Source of the DNA: a virus
Strand: one strand, 5' to 3'
DNA length: 64,000 nt
IMG/VR virus record: IMGVR_UViG_3300044730_000222
Location: 37,846-101,845 of that record
Position 1 is the first letter of the stretch. Each line of letters begins with the position of its first letter. The translations under genes and the position numbers were made by a program. The notes beneath the pieces are model-generated. The model searched no databases and was not told the origin of the DNA. It was given only the letters and a program-made list of their open reading frames with translations. Below, in pieces: positions 7,305 through 60,019 of the stretch.

Positions 7305-7586
7305 TTACTCCATTGTTAATGCTTGCCAGGTATAAGACCAATCTTTTTTAGTCTTATGATTGTTAAACTCTTTAGATATTTCTCCGCTTTCTAGATAAAT
7401 ACCGCCCCAAACGCCCCACTCTTTACCAGACACACCAACAGCAAAACATTGTCTTGCTACTGGGCATGTTCTACAAAGAGCATCTACAAATTCTCTTGAC
7501 TCTAAATTTTCTTCATAGTTATCAAAAAATATATTTGTGTCAGATCCAAGACATTCAGCATTATCTTTCCATAAATGCTGTTTCAT
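7305..7586 (-). CDS. whiB: WhiB-family Fe-S transcription factor
   Basis: W...A.C, CRTCPVARQC, GVWGG. Confidence 0.92.
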   Translation of the reverse strand: MKQHLWKDNAECLGSDTNIFFDNYEENLESREFVDALCRTCPVARQCFAVGVSGKEWGVWGGIYLESGEISKEFNNHKTKKDWSYTWQALTME

Positions 7587-8161: not shown

Positions 8162-8542
8162 CTACCCCCTTTTTAAATTATCCAATACAAACATCATTTT
8201 GTCAACATCTTGTTGAGACATTTTTGATGTATCAACTGGCTCAGCATTAGCAAAATCTGGAGAATCTTTTATTAGTTCTGCAGTATAAAAAATATTATCT
8301 GCTACCCAATATGCTCTGTCTTCAATTACTACTACCTTTATTGAATTTTTTCTTGCATGTTTTTTCAATTGAGAATCTGGCTTTTCTTCCATCTTCTCTG
8401 GAACATATCTTCTTAAAAGATTGTGCATATCGCTCTGACTATGCATAACACTTTTTGCAGATATCTTACTTTTTTGATTAACTATAACAATTATAGCAAA
8501 GGACACTATAAAAGTCAATATGATTGACCATAAATAGTCCAT
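8162..8542 (-). CDS. Hypothetical protein with N-terminal transmembrane helix
   Basis: Hydrophobic residues 4-21. Confidence 0.6.
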   Translation of the reverse strand: MDYLWSIILTFIVSFAIIVIVNQKSKISAKSVMHSQSDMHNLLRRYVPEKMEEKPDSQLKKHARKNSIKVVVIEDRAYWVADNIFYTAELIKDSPDFANAEPVDTSKMSQQDVDKMMFVLDNLKRG

Positions 8543-8552
8543 TTATTTCCTA

Positions 8553-8723
8553 CTACTCAGATTTTGTTTTTGTTGTTTTAATTGCTGGAACTGGCGCAGC
8601 CTGATTAATGATTAGTTTGTTTAACTTCAATTGAAGTTGTAAAACTTGAAATTCTAGATCAGATGCTTTTTGTTTGTAGAAGTTAACTAATTGTTTAACT
8701 TCATCAATACCTAAGTCTTCCAT
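8553..8723 (-). CDS. Small coiled-coil protein (56 aa, not in ORF track)
   Basis: MEDLGIDEVKQLVNFYKQKASDLEFQVLQLQLKLNKLIINQAAPVPAIKTTKTKSE; fills the gap, G-rich RBS. Confidence 0.6.
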   Translation of the reverse strand: MEDLGIDEVKQLVNFYKQKASDLEFQVLQLQLKLNKLIINQAAPVPAIKTTKTKSE

Positions 8724-8726
8724 TGC

Positions 8727-9137
8727 CTACCCCCTTTTTGTGCTAAATGCAGAACCCTCCCAGGTCTTTTCCGCTTTGCGCTTTTCACGCTCTACGATTG
8801 CACGAGACCAAGAAAATCCTGCGTCTCCACCCCAAGCATCCCACATAATCCTACCATTTGAAGGATTACTATTATTATAGAAGTCTTTTCCCTTTTTGTC
8901 AACTTCATGACGAGAAAAGAAAGAAAACATTCTTTTTACAGTAGATAATGACATTGATCTACCAGCAACAATATCTGTGGCACGACCCCAACCAACTGGG
9001 GTTCCAGCACCAGTTGCCTTGCCCTCTTCTTTCCAGCGAAGGGCACGTCGTGCTGCTGATTTCATACCAGATGTAGGGGTATATGTTTCTGCTTTATGAA
9101 CATCTGATGGTTGTACTACCTTTGTTCTACTTTCCAT
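8727..9137 (-). CDS. Conserved phage protein, candidate internal head protein
   Basis: TPVGWGRA...LSTVKRMFSFFSRHE...GRIMWDAWGGDAG domain; C-terminal KTWEGSAF; GGAG RBS favours ATG 9137. Confidence 0.55.
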   Translation of the reverse strand: MESRTKVVQPSDVHKAETYTPTSGMKSAARRALRWKEEGKATGAGTPVGWGRATDIVAGRSMSLSTVKRMFSFFSRHEVDKKGKDFYNNSNPSNGRIMWDAWGGDAGFSWSRAIVEREKRKAEKTWEGSAFSTKRG

Positions 9138-9264
9138 TTTTTTTCTCCCCATATTTTCCAAGAACTGCTTTTAAAGTTCCATCTTTACGAAGTCTAACAA
9201 TCATGCCGTCTTTAATTTGCACGGTATTAAAACCATCATGTCTTTTAAATTTTCCAGATGACAT
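9127..9264 (-). CDS. Small basic protein (45 aa, not in ORF track)
   Basis: MSSGKFKRHDGFNTVQIKDGMIVRLRKDGTLKAVLGKYGEKKNGK; TAATG coupling. Confidence 0.55.
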   Translation of the reverse strand: MSSGKFKRHDGFNTVQIKDGMIVRLRKDGTLKAVLGKYGEKKNGK

Positions 9265-10088
9265 TATTTTTTAAATGGATTAGGATCTAAAAATGATCCG
9301 CTCCAAAGACCTTTCGTTGTTTCACCTTCTTGAGACTTGTATGTTCCTCCACGACGTTTATATTCTTGCACTACCCATCCATTAGCAACTGCTGAAGGAT
9401 AAACGTCAAACTTATCTTTTGCTTCTTGTACAATTCGTGCATAAAGTCTTGGATTTGAGGGAGTGCTTCCACCTCTACGTGGCTGAATCATTTCTCCATA
9501 GTTAGGCTTTTTAGCCTTATCAAGTTCCTCATTAATCATTCTGCGTCTTGCCTCTTCAATCTCATCATCTTCGTCTTCCATTTCTCTTTCAGAATTTGCA
9601 TCTTGGTATGGGGCATTTGCAAGTGTTTTTTTATCAATATTAGATTTCATTGTTTCTTCTGCATCCATTTCGTGCTCCTTAATATCTATTTTTTGTGCAT
9701 CTGCATACATCATGCCAATACTATATGCAGTTGGTTCCCATTCGCCATCTTCTTCTTCATAAATTCTTACAGACATAGCAGGATTTTCTGGTGGCATAGA
9801 AACAAGAGCATATTCAGATCCAGGAGTTCCAAGAGTTCCACCTTCAGTCATGATATGTTCAATCATTCCATGAATAAGACCTTCTGTTGTAGCACCCATA
9901 ACAAAATCACCCTCTTTAAGAGTGTGCATAGTTTTGCCTATATTGCCCTCAGATTGGTTTATAGCGTAGATCTGTGCTGCTGCCTGTGTACGAGTATCAT
10001 GACAGCCCATTACCTCATTGGTACCCACCTTTAAAGCAGGGTAGCCAGAACAACCGTATGAACCCTTAGCACCTACACGATATGGCAT
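9264..10088 (-). CDS. Multidomain protein (DUF5872-like C-terminal part), candidate internal head protein
   Basis: YPSAVANGWVVQEYKRRGGTY domain; C-terminal KGLWSGSFL like the scaffold; leaderless promoter. Confidence 0.5.
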   Translation of the reverse strand: MPYRVGAKGSYGCSGYPALKVGTNEVMGCHDTRTQAAAQIYAINQSEGNIGKTMHTLKEGDFVMGATTEGLIHGMIEHIMTEGGTLGTPGSEYALVSMPPENPAMSVRIYEEEDGEWEPTAYSIGMMYADAQKIDIKEHEMDAEETMKSNIDKKTLANAPYQDANSEREMEDEDDEIEEARRRMINEELDKAKKPNYGEMIQPRRGGSTPSNPRLYARIVQEAKDKFDVYPSAVANGWVVQEYKRRGGTYKSQEGETTKGLWSGSFLDPNPFKK

Positions 10089-10100
10089 ACTCTGATTATA

Positions 10101-10466
10101 TCAGAGTTCTTGGCTTTTAAGCAGCCTCTTTATTTCCTCTATAGACCACTGATCTTCTTTAGATAGTTTAGATATTTCTTCAAGATCATGGGATTTTGGA
10201 GCAAGCCTAACGATGGGGGTATCAGACATAAGATCTATGTCAAGAAATCCTTTTTCCCATAACCCCATAAGTTTATTGTTAACATCATTAAGATGTTCAT
10301 GATATAGTTCTGGCATTATTTCTTGTATTTTAGGGGTAAATGAGTATAAGAATTCCCCAGTATTTTTATCTATGCCAGATACCTGTAGGCCACCATTTAA
10401 AAGTAAATAGTCAATTGCTGTTTGCTCATCAGGAATTTCTTTTTTATCCCATGAATCAGACATCAT
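10101..10466 (-). CDS. Hypothetical protein (paralog of 23347..23583)
   Basis: IDYLLLNGGLQVSGIDKNTGEFLYSFTPK aligns with IEHLLLQNAIEFAGIDEVTGDILYNITPK. Confidence 0.65.
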   Translation of the reverse strand: MMSDSWDKKEIPDEQTAIDYLLLNGGLQVSGIDKNTGEFLYSFTPKIQEIMPELYHEHLNDVNNKLMGLWEKGFLDIDLMSDTPIVRLAPKSHDLEEISKLSKEDQWSIEEIKRLLKSQEL

Positions 10467-20658: not shown

Positions 20659-22440
20659 TTAAATTAGTTTATATTCATTTAGAAACTCCTGAATATCTTC
20701 AGGAATCTCCTTGTTATCCAATTCTACCATAGCCTTCTGCTTATCCGCAAGTCGGCTGGCAGAACTCCAAGTATGAACCTCAATTTCTAGATTAGAGTCC
20801 TTACTTGTATGGGATATTGCTCCAAATACCGCCCCACAAACGGCATCTGCCAAGTCCTTAGATTTCTTGCGTGGATGATCAACTCTATTATTTTTCATAA
20901 TTTTAAGTTCACTCATCTCCTCAAGCAATAAAGGAATCATGGGCATTGCAATTCTCTCTTCATATATCATCATGGCTAGGTCTTCATAGTGTTTTTTAGC
21001 AACAGAAACAGTCTCTGTTTTTATGCCTACCGCTTTTAATTCCTGCTGAATATCAAAGGACTGCCAGCGGTCAAAGGTGACCATGCCAATGTTAAAACCT
21101 TCTCTGCGTAAATTCTGTATCCACTTTTTAACCTCAGATAAATCTACAGGACCCTCTACCTTTGGTTCCCACCAAGCAACGGCATCTACGATAACAATTG
21201 GCGCTACCTGCTCGTAATCTTTAATTACCTGAATGTTTACCCAGCGTTCAACGTGTGCGATAGCAACAGCACACTTATCATGTCTTTGTGCAAGGTCAGC
21301 ATGGATATAATATATTTTTTCTGGATCTGGCTTAAAACCAGCATCAAATCTTCTGTGATTGTCTATAGGATTTCTTAATGTCATACACTTTTCTAGTTTT
21401 TCTTTTTGCTTAAAGAATGAATCAGAGGAATATGTGGGGGTACATAAAAATCTCATCATTGCATCGCCTATATCAGTTAAAAATGCAATCTTAAAATCAT
21501 CAATCTTTCTAGTAGGATTTACTTCCCATGTAGGTCTTTTTAATGCAAACATTCTGGGGTACTTATATGATTTGATATGGTCTTCTTCCCATACTATTTC
21601 AAATTCATTATCTGGTCCTTCTGGTAGTTCCTCATTAATAACAAACTTATATCTACGTTCTATTACATCTTTTTCCATGATTACTTCTTCATACCGTTTT
21701 GAAATAAAGTCTCCGTTGTAGCGAGGGAATGAAAGAAGAACTACTTTGCCAAGATCTGGAAAACGAGAGTCTACTGTACCTCTAAATGCTTTATATATAT
21801 TGTCAGCAGTCTTACCCTGATCATTTCCTGTTCCTACTTCTGTAACGAAGCCAGAAATTTCATCAAGTACCGCCATAAATAAGTTAAGACCCTCGTGTGA
21901 TTCACGCTCAGAGTGACCTGAGTAAACGGTAATAGATTTATCAAAACCAATAGAGTTTACCTTTGGATCATACTTTCCAGCAAACCATGGAGACTTCTCA
22001 ATCTTAGTTTTAAAACCTTTGAAGAAAACATTTTTAGCCTGCTCAGCGTTAATAGCAACGTTGATAATATCTATGGCATCACCACTTGGTTTTCCATAAT
22101 ACCTTGCAGGATCTTTAAGGCAAAGAAGTTTATAAACAACATAGGCACAAGCAACAGTAGAGACAAAGTCTTTTCCACTACCCTTTCCTAGTTGTAAAAT
22201 AATCTCATTCTTAGTATATTTAGCAAAATGTTTGTCGCCCTCTTCATGCCCCATCAACATTTGCAAATCTTCTTTACGATAGATCTGGCTCATTGCTTCA
22301 ACAATGTCATACTGAATGGCAGACAATGGCGGTTGATTTAGAAAGTCTGGAGACTCAACAAAGGTCTTTGCATCTACAGGGGTTTCTTCAAATTGATTAT
22401 CTTGAAGGGCTTCAAAGAAATCATTGAACTTGGTGGACAA
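20659..22440 (-). CDS. terL: Terminase large subunit
   Basis: Walker A GKGSGKD, Walker B AVLDE, nuclease HADLA...D, DHP..KSKDLADA. Confidence 0.9.
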   Translation of the reverse strand: MSTKFNDFFEALQDNQFEETPVDAKTFVESPDFLNQPPLSAIQYDIVEAMSQIYRKEDLQMLMGHEEGDKHFAKYTKNEIILQLGKGSGKDFVSTVACAYVVYKLLCLKDPARYYGKPSGDAIDIINVAINAEQAKNVFFKGFKTKIEKSPWFAGKYDPKVNSIGFDKSITVYSGHSERESHEGLNLFMAVLDEISGFVTEVGTGNDQGKTADNIYKAFRGTVDSRFPDLGKVVLLSFPRYNGDFISKRYEEVIMEKDVIERRYKFVINEELPEGPDNEFEIVWEEDHIKSYKYPRMFALKRPTWEVNPTRKIDDFKIAFLTDIGDAMMRFLCTPTYSSDSFFKQKEKLEKCMTLRNPIDNHRRFDAGFKPDPEKIYYIHADLAQRHDKCAVAIAHVERWVNIQVIKDYEQVAPIVIVDAVAWWEPKVEGPVDLSEVKKWIQNLRREGFNIGMVTFDRWQSFDIQQELKAVGIKTETVSVAKKHYEDLAMMIYEERIAMPMIPLLLEEMSELKIMKNNRVDHPRKKSKDLADAVCGAVFGAISHTSKDSNLEIEVHTWSSASRLADKQKAMVELDNKEIPEDIQEFLNEYKLI

Positions 22441-55163: not shown

Positions 55164-55376
55164 CTATCTGTATAAACTTTGTGCTCTTCTTACTCCCGCA
55201 GGAGTCCCACTTATAATTACATTTTCACCAAAATTAGGTGTTGGTATGCATCCCAGTGCATATCTTTCTGTGATAATTCCATTAGGTCCACTAATGATTG
55301 TTCCTATACCGCCAACTGCTATAGCGCCGTCACCACTGTGTTGATGATTTACTGTTGGTTGTCCTGGATATGACAT
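55164..55376 (-). CDS. 70-aa paralog of the major capsid N-terminal arm
   Basis: YPGQPTVNHQHSGDGA, LGCIPTPNFG and SGTPAG match the MCP N-terminus; AGGAG RBS. Confidence 0.8.
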   Translation of the reverse strand: MSYPGQPTVNHQHSGDGAIAVGGIGTIISGPNGIITERYALGCIPTPNFGENVIISGTPAGVRRAQSLYR

Positions 55377-55442: not shown

Positions 55443-56582
55443 CTATGCGGTTGGGTCAGAGGCTGCATCTGCGTAAGCAACTGCATCCTGCTCTTCCCAT
55501 TGCAAGCCAAAACGAACGAATACTGTGTACTCGATTGTATCTTTCTTTGGCTTGTATTCACGGTTTACGGTAATATCTCTCTGGAAACCCCATACACGGT
55601 TAGCAGGGAATGTCAAATCGACATAATCTGCTGGGTAGTAAGGAACTTCCATAACATCAATTCCAAGAACACGAGTTGTACGTGCTCCACCGAATGTCTG
55701 TCCAACACCATCTAGGTATTGCTGACGGTTACGCTCTGTACCACCAGTACGAGGTGCAAACGCTTCAGCAATTGCATCAGCGAGTGTACCGTTGTTCTTA
55801 ACAATTCCCTGGAAAGCATCTGTACCAGCATAGAACTTTAGGTTCTGCTTGATAGCACGATACTTACGTGGCATTGCAAGAATGATGTCCTGCATGACCT
55901 CTGTTGTCCAGTTGTCATCAGTAACAGTAACGAGTGCCTCATGAGCATCTCCGTCATTTTCTACTTTGTAAACAAAGCCTTCCATGATTGAAAGGAATGC
56001 TCCTGTAGAACCATCACCATTAATGGCTAGGTCTTCGATATCGTTAGCAAATGCATTGGTCATCAAGCGAACTAGATGATCTTCCAACGCACCTCCTTCA
56101 ATATTGTCTTCAAGTGATTCTGTAGATACTTCCCAATCAAGACGAATCTTTTTGGTTGTTAGTTCTACCTTAGTGAATGAAGCACCTGTGTTTGTATAAT
56201 CGTTGCTTGCTTGTGCAGCAGCACGAATAACACGCTCACCAACGTTAACCTTCTCGATTTCCATGGTGTTTGCTCGCATTGTAACTCTACGACCATCTTT
56301 GGCGAGAACTGTTGCATCCCACACGTAGTCGATGAAGCGGCGAGCCTGCTCTGGCAGAAGAATACCACCTGGTGTACCAGTTGGACTTACTGCGTTCGGG
56401 CCGTTTGTCACACCAAAGTTTGGTGTAGCAATGTTACCCAGTTGAGCGCCAACATCAGATGTGGTTGGACTGGTTGCTGTTGCACCGCCAATGTCACCTG
56501 AAGCGAAAGCACCATCACCTGCGTGTTGATGCGCTACGGTTGGAGCACCTGGATAATTTTTTACGATTTCTTGTTCCGACAT
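55443..56582 (-). CDS. Major capsid protein (HK97 fold)
   Basis: GILLPEQARRFID, EDNIEG, FANDIEDLAINGD; AGGAGG RBS; follows the scaffold. Confidence 0.92.
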   Translation of the reverse strand: MSEQEIVKNYPGAPTVAHQHAGDGAFASGDIGGATATSPTTSDVGAQLGNIATPNFGVTNGPNAVSPTGTPGGILLPEQARRFIDYVWDATVLAKDGRRVTMRANTMEIEKVNVGERVIRAAAQASNDYTNTGASFTKVELTTKKIRLDWEVSTESLEDNIEGGALEDHLVRLMTNAFANDIEDLAINGDGSTGAFLSIMEGFVYKVENDGDAHEALVTVTDDNWTTEVMQDIILAMPRKYRAIKQNLKFYAGTDAFQGIVKNNGTLADAIAEAFAPRTGGTERNRQQYLDGVGQTFGGARTTRVLGIDVMEVPYYPADYVDLTFPANRVWGFQRDITVNREYKPKKDTIEYTVFVRFGLQWEEQDAVAYADAASDPTA

Positions 56583-56609
56583 ATTGTTCACCTCCTAGTG
56601 AATATACCT

Positions 56610-57191
56610 TTAATTAAATAGGTCGGCTGTTTTGAGGAAACGTCCGCCCCATAGGGATTTTTGAGTTTTCATTTCTGGAAACTCCTGCACGATCTCGCCT
56701 AGATCGCCAGACTTGCGGAAAGCAGTATCTTTTTCTACAAGATCTACTCGCTTTCCAAACTCATTAAAAGTTCCCTTTACTTGGCTTACCTCATTTGCTA
56801 CAGACTTTACTTCGCCTGTAACTGTTTCAAGGGACTTTGTGATTGCTTCAACGTTAGCCTGCATAGACTTAACTGTTTCAGCAAGATTGCTCAAGGCATT
56901 AGTAAGAGAGTCATTGATTTCAGCAACAGACTTTGCAATCTCTGCTGCACTATCAACTACTGCATCTACTGACTTTTCCGCTGCGATGTCAACAACAGGA
57001 GCATCTGCTACTGGTGCTGAATCTGCCACTGGCTCTGCAACAGGTGCTTCTGCAGAAACTTCTGCTGGAGCATCTACTGGAGCCTCTGCTACAGCATCTG
57101 CTGGAGCCTCTGGAGCAACCTCAACATGTTCAACTACTTCTGCTGCATCTGCAACTGGTGCATCTACAACTTCCATTGTTTCTTCTGTCAT
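56610..57191 (-). CDS. Nested in-frame scaffold protein (193 aa)
   Basis: Internal AAGGAGG 8 nt before ATG 57191, at the domain boundary. Confidence 0.6.
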   Translation of the reverse strand: MTEETMEVVDAPVADAAEVVEHVEVAPEAPADAVAEAPVDAPAEVSAEAPVAEPVADSAPVADAPVVDIAAEKSVDAVVDSAAEIAKSVAEINDSLTNALSNLAETVKSMQANVEAITKSLETVTGEVKSVANEVSQVKGTFNEFGKRVDLVEKDTAFRKSGDLGEIVQEFPEMKTQKSLWGGRFLKTADLFN

Positions 57192-57932
57192 AGGATTTTC
57201 CTCCTTTGTAATCTTAATTGTCCTAATGCCTTTTGCACTATCAACTAAGAACTTTACTGTTGTGATATCTTCTTGATCTTCAACAAATCCAATGTTTTTC
57301 ATTGAACCATTGCAAGATGGACAAGTTTCATCAGAATCTTTTGAAAGTCTTACGATATCATCTGTTTTGCACCAATAAACTGTATCAACAACTGCCTTTG
57401 CTAAATACCCGCCAAGTTGTCCCTTTTCAATAGAGATAACATTAGCAAATTGATTTGCTGGGTTGTCAACAAGCGATAATTCATGCAAGTCGTACTCTTT
57501 AATTATACGCACTGATTTATCAATTTTTTCATCATACATGTCATCAGACTTTGTAATATTTCCACCAATTGAAAAACCAGTTAAAGTTCCATCAAGGACT
57601 TTCTCCCAAGTATCCTGGGCACCTTTTGAAACATAAGCAGAAACATAGACTCCGCTATAAAACTTTTTTACCTGTGGATCAAAATAGCGATCCTCTTTAA
57701 AAGAAACAACCTTGCCTACAGCACTGGGTTGATGCATCTCACGAAGGTTGCCACGGAATTTCTTAAATGCCTCTATACTTGCTTCTGTCGTAACGATATC
57801 GCCTTGCTTATCTACGTTATCTAGAGTAGCAAAGCCAGAAACAATACGACGTTCTTGATCTACTTTACCAATGGGCATTGAAAAGCGAACATTGTCGCCA
57901 TCAGTAACCCAGTGTGCTTTATTTATAGTCAT
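56610..57932 (-). CDS. HK97-type prohead protease fused to scaffold
   Basis: VSGFAT.DNVDKQGD, REMH, GFSIGG, ELSLVDNPAN; A/P/E/V-rich linker; coiled coil. Confidence 0.9.
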   Translation of the reverse strand: MTINKAHWVTDGDNVRFSMPIGKVDQERRIVSGFATLDNVDKQGDIVTTEASIEAFKKFRGNLREMHQPSAVGKVVSFKEDRYFDPQVKKFYSGVYVSAYVSKGAQDTWEKVLDGTLTGFSIGGNITKSDDMYDEKIDKSVRIIKEYDLHELSLVDNPANQFANVISIEKGQLGGYLAKAVVDTVYWCKTDDIVRLSKDSDETCPSCNGSMKNIGFVEDQEDITTVKFLVDSAKGIRTIKITKEENPMTEETMEVVDAPVADAAEVVEHVEVAPEAPADAVAEAPVDAPAEVSAEAPVAEPVADSAPVADAPVVDIAAEKSVDAVVDSAAEIAKSVAEINDSLTNALSNLAETVKSMQANVEAITKSLETVTGEVKSVANEVSQVKGTFNEFGKRVDLVEKDTAFRKSGDLGEIVQEFPEMKTQKSLWGGRFLKTADLFN

Positions 57933-57972
57933 GGCAGTATTATTATAGCATTACTTTATAATGCTTTCTCAA

Positions 57973-59616
57973 CTATTGAGACGATCTGCCTTCACCTTGT
58001 GCATTTCTTCCAGATATGGTTGTAGGAGAATCTGATTCATTATTTGCTCTTTCAGCATCTCTTTCTCTGTTACCCGCCAAGTTTGCCCTAGCATCTGTGG
58101 CTTGTCTAGCACTCATTGTAAATGGGTCATCTCCATCTGGACGCTGTGACATGTTTAGTATTTCACGTGCCTCATTTGGAGTAATAACCTGAGTCTTGAC
58201 ATACCGCTCAATAATCTGAGATTGGGCAATTTCATCTGTAAGTGTAAGTTCATTAAACTTAAGATCAAGAATGTCAGTCTTTTCCTTAACTATCTTATTT
58301 ACGATCTTCTCCAAATGACGCTGGGCTGGACGAGAAACCTGCTCTTTAAAAGTTCTATCCTGTGCAAGGGCAGCAGCGATAGCAGCAGAGTCAGATCCGC
58401 CAAGTTTTGAAATAGGAACCTGATGGGCAACCAAAATATCATCACGATTTTGTTTACGATATTTTTCAAATGAACCTTCTTGGACACCATTTTCAATAGG
58501 TTGCATACTAAACTCAACCTTATTTCCATCTGTATCTCCAGGAAGTGGAATATATAATGTTCTGTGATTTTGTCCTTTTAGACCTGTTTGCATAAAACGG
58601 AACATCTTGTCTTCAGCATCAGCAGATAGTTTTGCACCTTTTACTGTGATGATATATCTTGGTACCGCTTTGTTTTGGAAATAATCAATATTATACTGAG
58701 CAGCAAGAGAGTCTCCAATAAGAGAAGAAACGGCAGATAAAATATCTGGAACCCCGTAAAATGTATTTAAAGGAGAGTATTGTTTAAGATGTAAAATTTC
58801 GTTTGGTCTTTGATCTGCAGTAAGAGGATTTGTATTTTTTGCACCAAAGTTTCTAAAGTATACTAACTTCTGACCAATGATTTGTACAAAGCCATCACGC
58901 AAACGACGGACACGAACTGTGGTTGCTGGAATGTGTCCAACATAACCAATCTCTCCAGTTACGGTACGACCAATCTCAAGGAAGCCATTTCCTGTAGCCT
59001 GAACATCTGTATAGAACTTCTCCATTGTTTGCTGGAAAGTATCCTCATCATTTAAAGATTCTAGCCAGTCACGAACCTCTAGTTTCATACGCTCTACACG
59101 ACGACGAGCACGATCAACGGCATCATCATCATCGTTCATTTCAAACCTTAACATTGTTCTATCTGTTAATTCAAATTTATAACCAAGACCTACAACATTT
59201 TCTACCTTTGCATCAATAGCAGCATGATTAGCAAAAGAAGTATCATAATAACTTGCTAGTTCATAAAGGTTATATGGTGGTGTGATTACATCAAATAAGC
59301 CATAGCCATTTTGATATACCGTTCCAGGATTAATCTGTTTTGACTGTGCCCCGTCTTTTCCAGAAGGAAAGGCGTTTGCATCATTTAAATATGCAGGAGT
59401 TGGAGCAATTGCAGGATAACGAGGATTGTAAGTCTCTGGAGCCATAGAATACTTGGAAACTGTTCTGCTAGTTCTGCGCTTGAAGTTAGTGTCTATGCCA
59501 GACAGATCTTTAAGTTGGTCCCATGATTTTAAGAAAGGGTCACTCTCAAGAAACTGATTGTTTCCTGTATCTTCTGTGTTTAGGCTTGCTTGAATATATT
59601 CAAATTCTCTATCCAT
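57973..59616 (-). CDS. Portal protein
   Basis: TGNGFLE, YGVPD, YFQNKAVP, HQVP, TPNEAR. Confidence 0.92.
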   Translation of the reverse strand: MDREFEYIQASLNTEDTGNNQFLESDPFLKSWDQLKDLSGIDTNFKRRTSRTVSKYSMAPETYNPRYPAIAPTPAYLNDANAFPSGKDGAQSKQINPGTVYQNGYGLFDVITPPYNLYELASYYDTSFANHAAIDAKVENVVGLGYKFELTDRTMLRFEMNDDDDAVDRARRRVERMKLEVRDWLESLNDEDTFQQTMEKFYTDVQATGNGFLEIGRTVTGEIGYVGHIPATTVRVRRLRDGFVQIIGQKLVYFRNFGAKNTNPLTADQRPNEILHLKQYSPLNTFYGVPDILSAVSSLIGDSLAAQYNIDYFQNKAVPRYIITVKGAKLSADAEDKMFRFMQTGLKGQNHRTLYIPLPGDTDGNKVEFSMQPIENGVQEGSFEKYRKQNRDDILVAHQVPISKLGGSDSAAIAAALAQDRTFKEQVSRPAQRHLEKIVNKIVKEKTDILDLKFNELTLTDEIAQSQIIERYVKTQVITPNEAREILNMSQRPDGDDPFTMSARQATDARANLAGNRERDAERANNESDSPTTISGRNAQGEGRSSQ

Positions 59617-60019
59617 TTTCGTATGCATCTCTTCCGTGTGTTTTTAATGTTTTTTGTGCAGCGTCAACAGCGCCTAGATCATTTAGTGAAGGAATAAGTC
59701 CTTGATTAAATCTATCTACCTGCTCGCTATACTCTTCGTCTGTAACTCTCGTTAGACCTGGCACAAATACCGCCTGACCATCACCCTCATCGCCATAGAA
59801 AACTGCTGTTTGTTTTAATTTTGCAATCTGGGCAATATCTCCACGAAGCGACTCAATGTTTAAAACATTGCCATCTCCATCTGTAAACCACTTGCCATTA
59901 GCCTTTTTATAAACATAAAGACCCCAATTGTAGTCTTTCTCAATCACCTTACGGCGAACATTACTTACAATGGGTTTGCCAGTTTTAGGATTAATCAATG
60001 GATTATTTTTAGAACTCAT
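59609..60019 (-). CDS. Conserved protein preceding portal
   Basis: Leaderless TGCTATACT promoter; overlaps the portal start. Confidence 0.65.
   Translation of the reverse strand: MSSKNNPLINPKTGKPIVSNVRRKVIEKDYNWGLYVYKKANGKWFTDGDGNVLNIESLRGDIAQIAKLKQTAVFYGDEGDGQAVFVPGLTRVTDEEYSEQVDRFNQGLIPSLNDLGAVDAAQKTLKTHGRDAYENG

What the first reader, a model, noticed from the sequence alone, without database searches (positions are those of the whole stretch)
8727..10088. Candidate capsid cargo-loading tag shared by the scaffold and two unlinked proteins
Seen: the scaffold ends KSLWGGRFLKTADLFN* (motif at 56634-56660), the 274-aa protein ends KGLWSGSFLDPNPFKK* and the 8727 protein ends KTWEGSAFSTKRG*. 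The Trp is at -13 from the C-terminus in the first two and at -11 in the third. The two genes lie ~46 kb from the head module. They share the hydrophobic-x-K-(S/A/T) sites that recur in the scaffold (IAKS, ITKS, FRKS, INKA versus VHKA, IGKT, LDKA), and the 274-aa gene has an extended -10 promoter like those of the structural genes. Known: scaffold C-termini bind the inner face of coat protein (P22, herpesvirus), and encapsulins load cargo through short terminal peptides. Inference: the phage reuses its scaffold coat-binding peptide to package, and protease-process, internal or ejected proteins.
Basis: partly seen in the sequence, partly recalled or inferred. Interest (0 to 1): 0.85.

Follow-up and report, generated by a model that had tools for sequence, protein, structure and literature searches.

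The report
Scaffold-tail peptide reused as cargo tag
In this uncultured 102-kb lake phage, the short disordered peptide that ends the head-scaffold protein also ends two small unrelated proteins encoded far from the head genes. It is conserved and swapped between protein modules in hundreds of relatives, so it is probably a natural address label that loads cargo into the young capsid, but no experiment shows this yet.

Summary
Observation confirmed. The protease-scaffold fusion (56610-57932, -), a 274-aa DUF5872 protein (9264-10088, -) and a 144-aa phrog_2859-domain protein (8727-9161, -) all end in K-x(1,2)-W-x-G-x(1,2)-F. These are the only three occurrences in the 162-gene proteome.

Evidence that the tail is functional:
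- Scoring every 9-mer of the proteome against the scaffold's KSLWGGRFL, the 274-aa tail is the clear best hit, at the same distance from the C-terminus.
- Each tail is conserved in its own family. The scaffold tail is invariant in 89 relatives and is recognisable in Streptomyces phage Coruscant.
- In relatives the tail is portable, following DUF5872, Hva1_TUDOR, DUF5824 or the phrog_2859 domain.
- It is predicted to be disordered.

The phrog_2859 domain is fused to prohead protease, portal or capsid proteins in many other phages, which places it in the head interior.

Best reading (about 0.55): a C-terminal capsid-targeting peptide that mimics the scaffold's coat-binding end.

Not supported:
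- Shared protease sites in the cargo.
- A structural-gene-specific promoter.

Binding, packaging and processing are untested. Some sister phages carry tag-less versions of the same domains.

The scan found the same idea before on other DNA: T4-like phages with N-terminal tags. This is a C-terminal variant in an HK97/S78 lineage.

The parts
56610..57932 (-). Prohead protease-scaffold fusion, 440 aa. Layout: N-terminal S78/XkdF protease, acidic Ala/Pro/Val-rich linker, coiled coil, C-terminal tail.
   Evidence: Pfam Peptidase_S78 30.5 bits (cut-off 21) and Peptidase_S78_2 27.4 bits (cut-off 24). phrog_9427 'head maturation protease' matches full length, E 1.3e-120. The gene lies between portal and MCP.
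56613..56660 (-). Scaffold C-terminal tail (last 16 residues). Core KSLWGGRFL at 56634-56660.
   Evidence: Invariant core in 80 IMG/VR loci and in 9 further relatives at 58-80% identity, with single S/V or G/D changes. Streptomyces phage Coruscant ends K-W-G-G-H-F-L with Trp also 13th from the end.
57189..57207 (-). Internal in-frame start of a nested scaffold gene (Met248, 193 aa): AAAGGAGG, 8 nt, ATG.
   Evidence: A Shine-Dalgarno sequence plus in-frame ATG at this place is found in 85 of 89 homologous genes, including the distant ones.
9264..10088 (-). 274-aa tagged protein. Layout: small alpha/beta domain (1-50), SH3/Tudor-like barrel (60-135), acidic helical linker, DUF5872 hairpin (210-254), disordered tail.
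   Evidence: Pfam DUF5872 30.6 bits (cut-off 27.5). AlphaFold2 mean pLDDT 74.8, with residues 254-274 below 50. The modules recur separately in 1,535 representatives.
9267..9314 (-). Tail of the 274-aa protein (last 16 residues). Core KGLWSGSFL at 9288-9314.
   Evidence: W262 and G264 are invariant and K259 is at least 90% conserved in 39 diverse homologues. Nearly all of the 120 best homologues show the tail, visibly in the listing; 88 fit the stricter W.G.{1,2}F in the last 25 residues. Best proteome-wide match to the scaffold tail.
8727..9161 (-). 144-aa basic protein (pI 10.3). Its real start is probably Met9 (ATG 9135-9137), giving 136 aa. Helical phrog_2859 domain (about residues 27-132) plus tail.
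   Evidence: phrog_2859 E 8e-33. The N-termini of homologues align at Met9. AlphaFold2 mean pLDDT 79.9. pI.
8730..8768 (-). Tail of the 144-aa protein. Core KTWEGSAF at 8745-8768.
   Evidence: K-x-W-x-G-[ST]-x-F is terminal in 83 of the 120 nearest homologues. Another 11 have G replaced by D, E, S or L. It is also terminal in about 70 syntenic loci.
10095..10103 (-). Extended -10 (TGATATAAT), 6 nt before the 274-aa ATG with no Shine-Dalgarno sequence. Candidate leaderless start.
55443..56591 (-). Major capsid protein (382 aa), the presumed receptor of the tail.
   Evidence: phrog_1623 'virion structural protein' E 2.1e-71 and phrog_10 'major head protein' E 2.1e-6. The core from residue 76 is highly conserved and the N-terminal 75 residues are variable.

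Best explanation
The last roughly 16 residues of the scaffold (core K-S-L-W-G-G-R-F-L) are its anchor to the inside of the procapsid shell. Two other proteins carry a degenerate copy of that peptide (K-x-[IL]-W-x-G-x-[FL], or K-x-W-x-G-[ST]-x-F) as a disordered C-terminal tag. While coat protein polymerises around the scaffold, tagged proteins occupy some of the same sites and are enclosed. They stay in the head after the scaffold is degraded and leave with the DNA at infection.

Shown:
- The motif exists.
- It is strictly C-terminal.
- It is conserved in three families.
- It is portable between modules.
- The phrog_2859 domain is linked to head proteins.

Inferred:
- The scaffold tail binds coat protein (by analogy with P22, 80alpha, HK97 protease and herpesvirus pUL26/26.5).
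- The cargo tails use the same site.
- The cargo is packaged and ejected.

Weakly inferred: the protease clips the tag off at the conserved Lys.
For: 1. The motif occurs three times in the proteome, all at C-termini. The 274-aa tail is the best proteome-wide match to the scaffold tail, at the same offset from the C-terminus.

2. Each tail is conserved while the flanking sequence varies:
- Scaffold: and Coruscant.
- 274-aa family: W262 and G264 invariant.
- 144-aa family.

3. The tag is portable. Among 147 representatives at 50% identity, 36 end in it, and it follows DUF5872, Hva1_TUDOR, DUF5824, a 'PNCVP' module or the phrog_2859 domain. DUF5872 proteins of unrelated phages lack it.

4. The tail is predicted to be disordered, as docking peptides are.

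5. Fusion evidence for the phrog_2859 domain:
- It is the N-terminus of a polyprotein ending in an HK97-type capsid domain in Synechococcus phage S-CBS1.
- It is the N-terminus of a protease-capsid polyprotein in Roseobacter phage CRP-821.
- It lies in a head-module gene of Actinomycetia phage DSL-LC01.
- Its predicted fold matches BFVD viral proteins named prohead protease, XkdF, portal or major capsid protein.

6. In sister phages the modules of the 274-aa and 144-aa proteins occur fused in one protein (P0211). They therefore belong to one functional set.

7. In three complete relatives, the only recurring carriers of the tail are these same families.

8. The scaffold C-terminus is shared by a nested scaffold gene, as in lambda C/Nu3 and herpesvirus UL26/UL26.5. 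This fits a tail whose job is entry into the procapsid.

9. Large terminase also lies 34 kb from the portal gene. Distance from the head module is therefore normal in this genome type.
Against: - There are no virion proteomics, binding or structural data.
- The scaffold tail is invariant, so it cannot covary with the more variable cargo tails.
- Sister phages with the same scaffold tail carry the same domains ending in a TUDOR domain without the tag. Others carry a different 'type B' ending (K-[ED]-I-F-x-x-F-G ... V-F-K-[DN]). The tag is therefore not obligatory for these domains, unless type B is a variant of it.
- The 144-aa tail has different spacing.
- Streptomyces phage Coruscant keeps the scaffold tail but has no tagged cargo.
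- The proposed protease sites are not enriched in the cargo.
Confidence: 0.55

Rival explanations
1. The tail is a head-assembly docking peptide, but its receptor is not the coat protein. It could be the portal, the protease domain or the scaffold coiled coil, as T4 targeting sequences bind the scaffold core. Cargo would still end up in the head.
For: The phrog_2859 fold is fused to portal-type proteins as well as to proteases. T4 capsid-targeting sequences are described as binding the prohead core (PMC7411985). Nothing here identifies the receptor.
Against: By analogy with P22, 80alpha and herpesvirus, the extreme scaffold C-terminus is usually the coat-binding end. This rests on established knowledge and was not tested here.
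Confidence: 0.15
2. The cargo tails are conserved short motifs with a job unrelated to the capsid, such as binding a host protein, self-association or turnover. Their likeness to the scaffold tail is convergent.
For: - Only about five positions are shared.
- The 144-aa tail has shifted spacing.
- Tag-less and 'type B' versions exist in phages with the same scaffold tail.
- The genes lie among small genes of mixed function, 46 kb from the head genes.
Against: - The 274-aa tail is the best proteome-wide match, at an identical offset.
- All three occurrences of the motif are terminal.
- The 144-aa domain is independently linked to the head through fusions.
Confidence: 0.2
3. Chance resemblance with no function.
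For: The regular expression was written after the three tails had been seen.
Against: The tails are conserved in hundreds of homologues while neighbouring residues vary. They are portable across modules. The untuned scan also finds the 274-aa tail.
Confidence: 0.03

Closest known systems
Phage T4 capsid targeting sequence (CTS) of IPI-III and Alt (Mullaney and Black 1996, as cited in PMC7411985)
   Same: A short peptide on otherwise unrelated proteins directs them into the prohead, and the cargo is later ejected with the DNA.
   Different: The T4 tag is N-terminal, is removed by the S77 protease gp21 at a defined site, and binds the scaffold core. Here the tag is C-terminal and disordered, the protease is an S78/XkdF type, and the tag copies the scaffold's own C-terminus. 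Removal is not shown.
Prohead protease C-terminal targeting signals: HK97 gp4 (Duda, Oh and Hendrix 2013, cited in PMC7411985; paper not held) and SPN3US gp245 (PMC7411985)
   Same: A C-terminal segment of a head-interior protein is the signal for incorporation into the prohead. HK97 gp4 is the type S78 protease.
   Different: Those signals are described for the protease itself. They have not been described as copied onto unlinked cargo genes.
Staphylococcal phage 80alpha scaffold and SaPI1 CpmB (Dearborn et al. 2017, PMC5644958)
   Same: As I recall the paper (only its title and the start of its abstract were seen here), two different proteins share a scaffold-type C-terminus that contacts the coat protein and compete for it.
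   Different: CpmB is an alternative scaffold of a satellite that changes capsid size. It is not cargo.
Encapsulin cargo-loading peptides
   Same: Short, disordered, mostly C-terminal peptides on diverse cargo that dock on the inner face of an HK97-fold shell (own knowledge).
   Different: Encapsulins have no portal, scaffold or protease, and the motif differs (Gly/Ser/Leu-rich rather than W-x-G-x-F). Here the shell is a phage head that is later filled with DNA.
Herpesvirus pUL26/pUL26.5 and lambda C/Nu3 nested protease-scaffold genes
   Same: A protease-scaffold fusion and a nested, in-frame scaffold share one C-terminus that binds the major capsid protein. In herpesvirus a protease cut releases this tail (own knowledge).
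   Different: No third-party cargo is known to borrow that tail.
Earlier findings of this scan on other DNA (e1-5633670, e1-5877951, e1-5378078)
   Same: The scaffold-tail peptide is reused as a tag on unrelated proteins.
   Different: Those are T4-related or jumbo phages with a helical tag, mostly N-terminal and next to a protease site. This is a C-terminal, disordered tag in an actinophage-like S78 lineage.

Membership tests
Caudovirus prohead serine protease (Peptidase_S78 / S78_2 XkdF) fused to scaffold | Profile match above the curated cut-off, and a position between portal and MCP | tested here: met
   S78 30.5 bits (cut-off 21), S78_2 27.4 bits (cut-off 24), phrog_9427 E 1.3e-120. Gene order.
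Scaffold C-terminal coat-binding tail (P22, 80alpha, herpesvirus type) | Conserved segment at the extreme C-terminus of the scaffold | tested here: met
Scaffold C-terminal coat-binding tail (P22, 80alpha, herpesvirus type) | Physical binding to the major capsid protein | not testable with these tools
   No binding data can be obtained here. Pull-down or cryo-EM is needed.
Nested protease/scaffold gene pair (lambda C/Nu3, herpesvirus UL26/UL26.5) | Internal in-frame start with its own ribosome-binding site, conserved in relatives | tested here: met
   AAAGGAGG, 8 nt, then ATG at Met248. Present in 85 of 89 homologues. Translation from this start is not shown.
T4-type capsid targeting sequence | N-terminal propeptide | tested here: not met
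   The tag is at the C-terminus in all three families.
T4-type capsid targeting sequence | Removed by an S77 (gp21-type) protease at a defined site next to the tag | tested here: not met
   The protease is S78/XkdF type. No enriched cleavage motif is found in the cargo. A conserved Lys lies 2-3 residues before the Trp, but its role is unknown.
Encapsulin cargo-loading peptide | Short disordered terminal peptide on diverse cargo | tested here: met
   pLDDT is below 50 for residues 254-274. The tag follows at least four different modules.
Encapsulin cargo-loading peptide | The shell is an encapsulin, with no portal, tail or packaging genes | tested here: not met
   Portal, tail and terminase genes are present.
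DUF5872 (PF19197) | Profile match above the gathering score | tested here: met
   30.6 bits (cut-off 27.5), residues 210-254, covering profile positions 1-49 of 116.
phrog_2859 domain | Profile match | tested here: met
   E 8e-33, residues 6-131. 55 BFVD fold matches with E at or below 0.001.

The most novel reading that the evidence does not exclude
An HK97-lineage tailed phage group uses an encapsulin-like system. A portable, disordered C-terminal peptide copied from the scaffold's coat-binding end loads a shuffled set of small domains (phrog_2859 domain, DUF5872, Tudor-like barrels, DUF5824) into the capsid for delivery into the host. Other phages achieve the same by fusing the cargo domain to the protease-capsid polyprotein. 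This would be a natural link between phage scaffolding and encapsulin cargo loading, and a ready-made tag for loading proteins into phage heads.
Probability: 0.45. Interest if true: 0.75.

Novelty: new variant of a known kind. Interest (0 to 1): 0.62.

Why it matters
Outside T4 and a few model phages, how proteins other than DNA get into phage heads is poorly understood. If this reading is true:

- It defines a simple, sequence-recognisable C-terminal loading signal in a very abundant group of freshwater phages. The 274-aa and 144-aa families have thousands of homologues in public metagenomes.
- It assigns a location (head interior, then the host cell) to several widespread domains of unknown function: DUF5872, DUF5824, Hva1_TUDOR in phages, and phrog_2859.
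- It shows two interchangeable ways of delivering the same domain, by tag or by fusion to the protease-capsid polyprotein.
- It offers a parallel to encapsulin cargo-loading peptides.
- It gives a directly testable 16-residue tag for packaging foreign proteins.

Tried and rejected
- **Co-folding.** Co-folding of the MCP (27-row alignment) with residues 236-274 of the 274-aa protein (39-row alignment) gave no verdict (score 0.00). This is not evidence either way.
- Metagenome contigs of the more divergent tagged proteins could therefore not be inspected. IMG/VR records were used instead.
- **Covariation.** A covariation test between scaffold and cargo tails is impossible because the scaffold tail is invariant.
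- **Type B ending and scaffold.** I asked whether phages with the alternative 'type B' or TUDOR ending have a different scaffold tail. They do not.
- **Coruscant.** A scan of the whole genome of Streptomyces phage Coruscant found no annotated gene other than the protease-scaffold ending in the tail.
- **Fold searches.** Foldseek on PDB gave no match at E of 0.001 or below for either model. The 274-aa barrel shows only weak SH3/Tudor/CAP-Gly-like rows. VIA-align wide on the 144-aa model gave a best Z of 4.7. No function could be assigned.
- **DNA similarity.** megablast of both regions against GenBank phages found no match.
- **Cleavage-site enrichment.** The hydrophobic-x-K-[SAT] motif is enriched only in the scaffold.
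- **Loose-regex hit.** Small proteins in two relatives end in G-L-W-A-E-G-Y-F-D. They have no homologue in this genome, and the neighbouring 124-aa protein is not related to them.

Full report
**What is there.** The window is the right-hand 64 kb of a single 101,845-bp, 37% G+C virus record.

On the minus strand lie portal (57973-59628), a 440-aa protease-scaffold fusion (56610-57932) and the major capsid protein (55443-56591). Tail genes, replication genes (DnaB-like helicase, DNA polymerase, UvsX-like recombinase) and the large terminase at 20659-22440 follow.

The nearest named relatives of the protease are the roughly 130-kb Streptomyces phages such as Coruscant, at 50-58% identity over residues 1-250. 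A WhiB-like gene lies at 7305-7586. Both point to an actinobacterial host.

The two genes of the finding are:
- a 274-aa acidic protein (9264-10088, pI 4.9);
- a 144-aa basic protein (8727-9161, pI 10.3; probable true start at Met9).

The three C-termini read as reported.
- K.{1,2}W.G.{1,2}F occurs three times in a 162-gene set, always in the last 16 residues.
- Because that pattern was tuned to the data, I also scored every 9-mer of the proteome against the scaffold's KSLWGGRFL. The 274-aa tail is the top non-self hit (35 against 25 for the next). It starts 16 residues from the end, exactly as in the scaffold.
- The 144-aa tail is a weaker likeness, with shifted spacing.

**Conservation.**
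- *Scaffold.* The tail core is invariant in 80 IMG/VR loci. It is nearly so in nine further genomes at 58-80% overall identity. Coruscant ends K-W-G-G-H-F-L, with Trp again 13th from the end.
- *274-aa family.* There are 3,543 hits in the word-indexed search. W262 and G264 are invariant and K259 is at least 90% conserved in 39 diverse members, while the residues between vary.
- *144-aa family.* 83 of the 120 nearest homologues end K-x-W-x-G-[ST]-x-F, and 11 more have the Gly replaced. About 70 syntenic loci show the same.
- *Complete relatives.* In three complete related genomes, the recurring carriers of the tail are just these families. In one genome a single 247-aa protein with the phrog_2859 domain carries the tag, and no separate 274-type carrier was found.

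**Portability.** The 274-aa protein is a string of small modules that recur in many orders. AlphaFold2 gives an alpha/beta domain, an SH3/Tudor-like barrel, an acidic helix, the DUF5872 hairpin and a disordered tail.

Among 147 representatives at 50% identity, 36 end in the tag. It follows DUF5872, Hva1_TUDOR, DUF5824, a 'PNCVP' module or the phrog_2859 domain. DUF5872 proteins of unrelated phages (S-BM3, C72C1) lack it. A terminal peptide that moves between modules behaves like a signal, not like part of a fold.

**Independent link of the cargo to the head.** The 144-aa protein's domain appears in head proteins of several other phages:
- It is the N-terminus of an 836-aa polyprotein in Synechococcus phage S-CBS1 that ends in Phage_capsid (residues 580-832).
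- It is the N-terminus of a 974-aa polyprotein in Roseobacter phage CRP-821 that contains Peptidase_S78 (419-514) and Phage_capsid (696-967).
- It sits in the first gene of the head module of Actinomycetia phage DSL-LC01.
- Its predicted fold matches 55 BFVD proteins at E of 0.001 or below. Many of these are named prohead protease, XkdF, portal or major capsid protein. Others are fused to ParB/sulfiredoxin, Dps or HAD domains.

In those phages the domain enters the head by covalent fusion. Here it stands alone with a scaffold-like tail.

In sister phages the modules of both proteins are fused in one chain (P0211).

**Mechanism proposed.** By analogy with P22, 80alpha, HK97 protease and herpesvirus pUL26/26.5 (established knowledge; PMC7411985, PMC5644958), the scaffold's extreme C-terminus anchors it to the coat protein.

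A conserved internal Shine-Dalgarno sequence plus ATG (Met248; 85 of 89 homologues) indicates a nested 193-aa scaffold that shares this C-terminus. At least two products would then already use one tail to enter the prohead.

The tagged proteins would use the same docking site, be enclosed, and remain after the scaffold is degraded.

**What weakens it.**
- There are no binding, virion or processing data.
- No covariation test is possible.
- Sister phages with the same scaffold tail carry the same domains ending in a TUDOR domain. In those, a 'type B' segment (K-A-L-F-x-x-F-G-K-D ... I-F-K) sits where the tag would be. Twelve of 120 stand-alone homologues end in that type B sequence. Type B loosely resembles the scaffold tail, but I cannot show that it is equivalent.
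- Coruscant has the scaffold tail but no tagged cargo.
- The claimed shared protease sites are enriched only in the scaffold.
- The extended -10 is real but general: 14 of the 15 sites lie on the coding strand, and several precede non-structural genes.

**Novelty.** Natural capsid-targeting tags are known (T4), and this scan has reported scaffold-tail tags in T4-related phages on other DNA. This case differs in three ways. The tag is C-terminal and disordered. It occurs in an S78/HK97-type actinophage lineage. And it has a fusion-versus-tag alternation for the same cargo domain. I rate it a new variant of a known kind, with the tag reading at about 0.55.

Noticed in passing
window 57189-57207 (-): A nested scaffold gene. 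A perfect AAAGGAGG lies 8 nt before an in-frame ATG (Met248) inside the protease-scaffold gene. This is conserved in 85 of 89 homologues, including those at 58-66% identity. It would give a 193-aa scaffold sharing the C-terminal tail, as in lambda C/Nu3.
   Followed up: yes
window 10095-10103, 57942-57950 and 12 other sites (-): TGNTATAAT occurs 15 times, 14 of them on the coding strand (6.1 expected on both strands). Two copies lie 6 and 9 nt before the ATGs of the 274-aa gene and the protease-scaffold gene, with no Shine-Dalgarno sequence. This suggests leaderless or near-leaderless transcripts, as is common in Actinobacteria.
   Followed up: partly
window 55164-55376 (-): A 70-aa ORF just after the MCP gene repeats the MCP N-terminal region (Y-P-G ... 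H-Q-H ... G-D-G ... T-P-N-F-G). In the MCP alignment, this N-terminal 75-residue region is the variable part.
   Followed up: partly
relatives: P0426, P0434, P0455, L001 and others; internal in P0211: An alternative 'type B' ending (K-[ED]-I-F-x-x-F-G-x-[DN] ... V-F-K-[DN]) replaces the W-x-G-x-F tail on the phrog_2859 domain in some relatives. It also serves as the linker before a TUDOR domain in fused forms. It can co-occur in one genome with a W-type tail on the DUF5872 protein (L001).
   Followed up: partly
window 8553-8723 (-) and relatives P0401, P0403, P0417, P0473: In some metagenomic gene calls, the 144-aa homologue runs on into the homologue of the downstream 56-aa gene, with Gln where this genome has the stop. 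These could be true fusions, read-through or a gene-caller artefact.
   Followed up: no
window 9127-9264 (-): A 45-aa ORF fills the gap between the two tagged genes. It overlaps the annotated TTG start of the 144-aa ORF, which supports Met9 as the real start.
   Followed up: no
window 20659-22440 (-): Large terminase lies about 34 kb from the portal gene, after the replication genes, as in Streptomyces phage Coruscant. Head-related genes are dispersed in this genome type.
   Followed up: partly
G001 66231-66392 (-), G002 8263-8472 (+): Small proteins in two complete relatives end in L-x-G-L-W-A-E-G-Y-F-D (W-x-x-G spacing). They have no homologue in this genome.
   Followed up: partly
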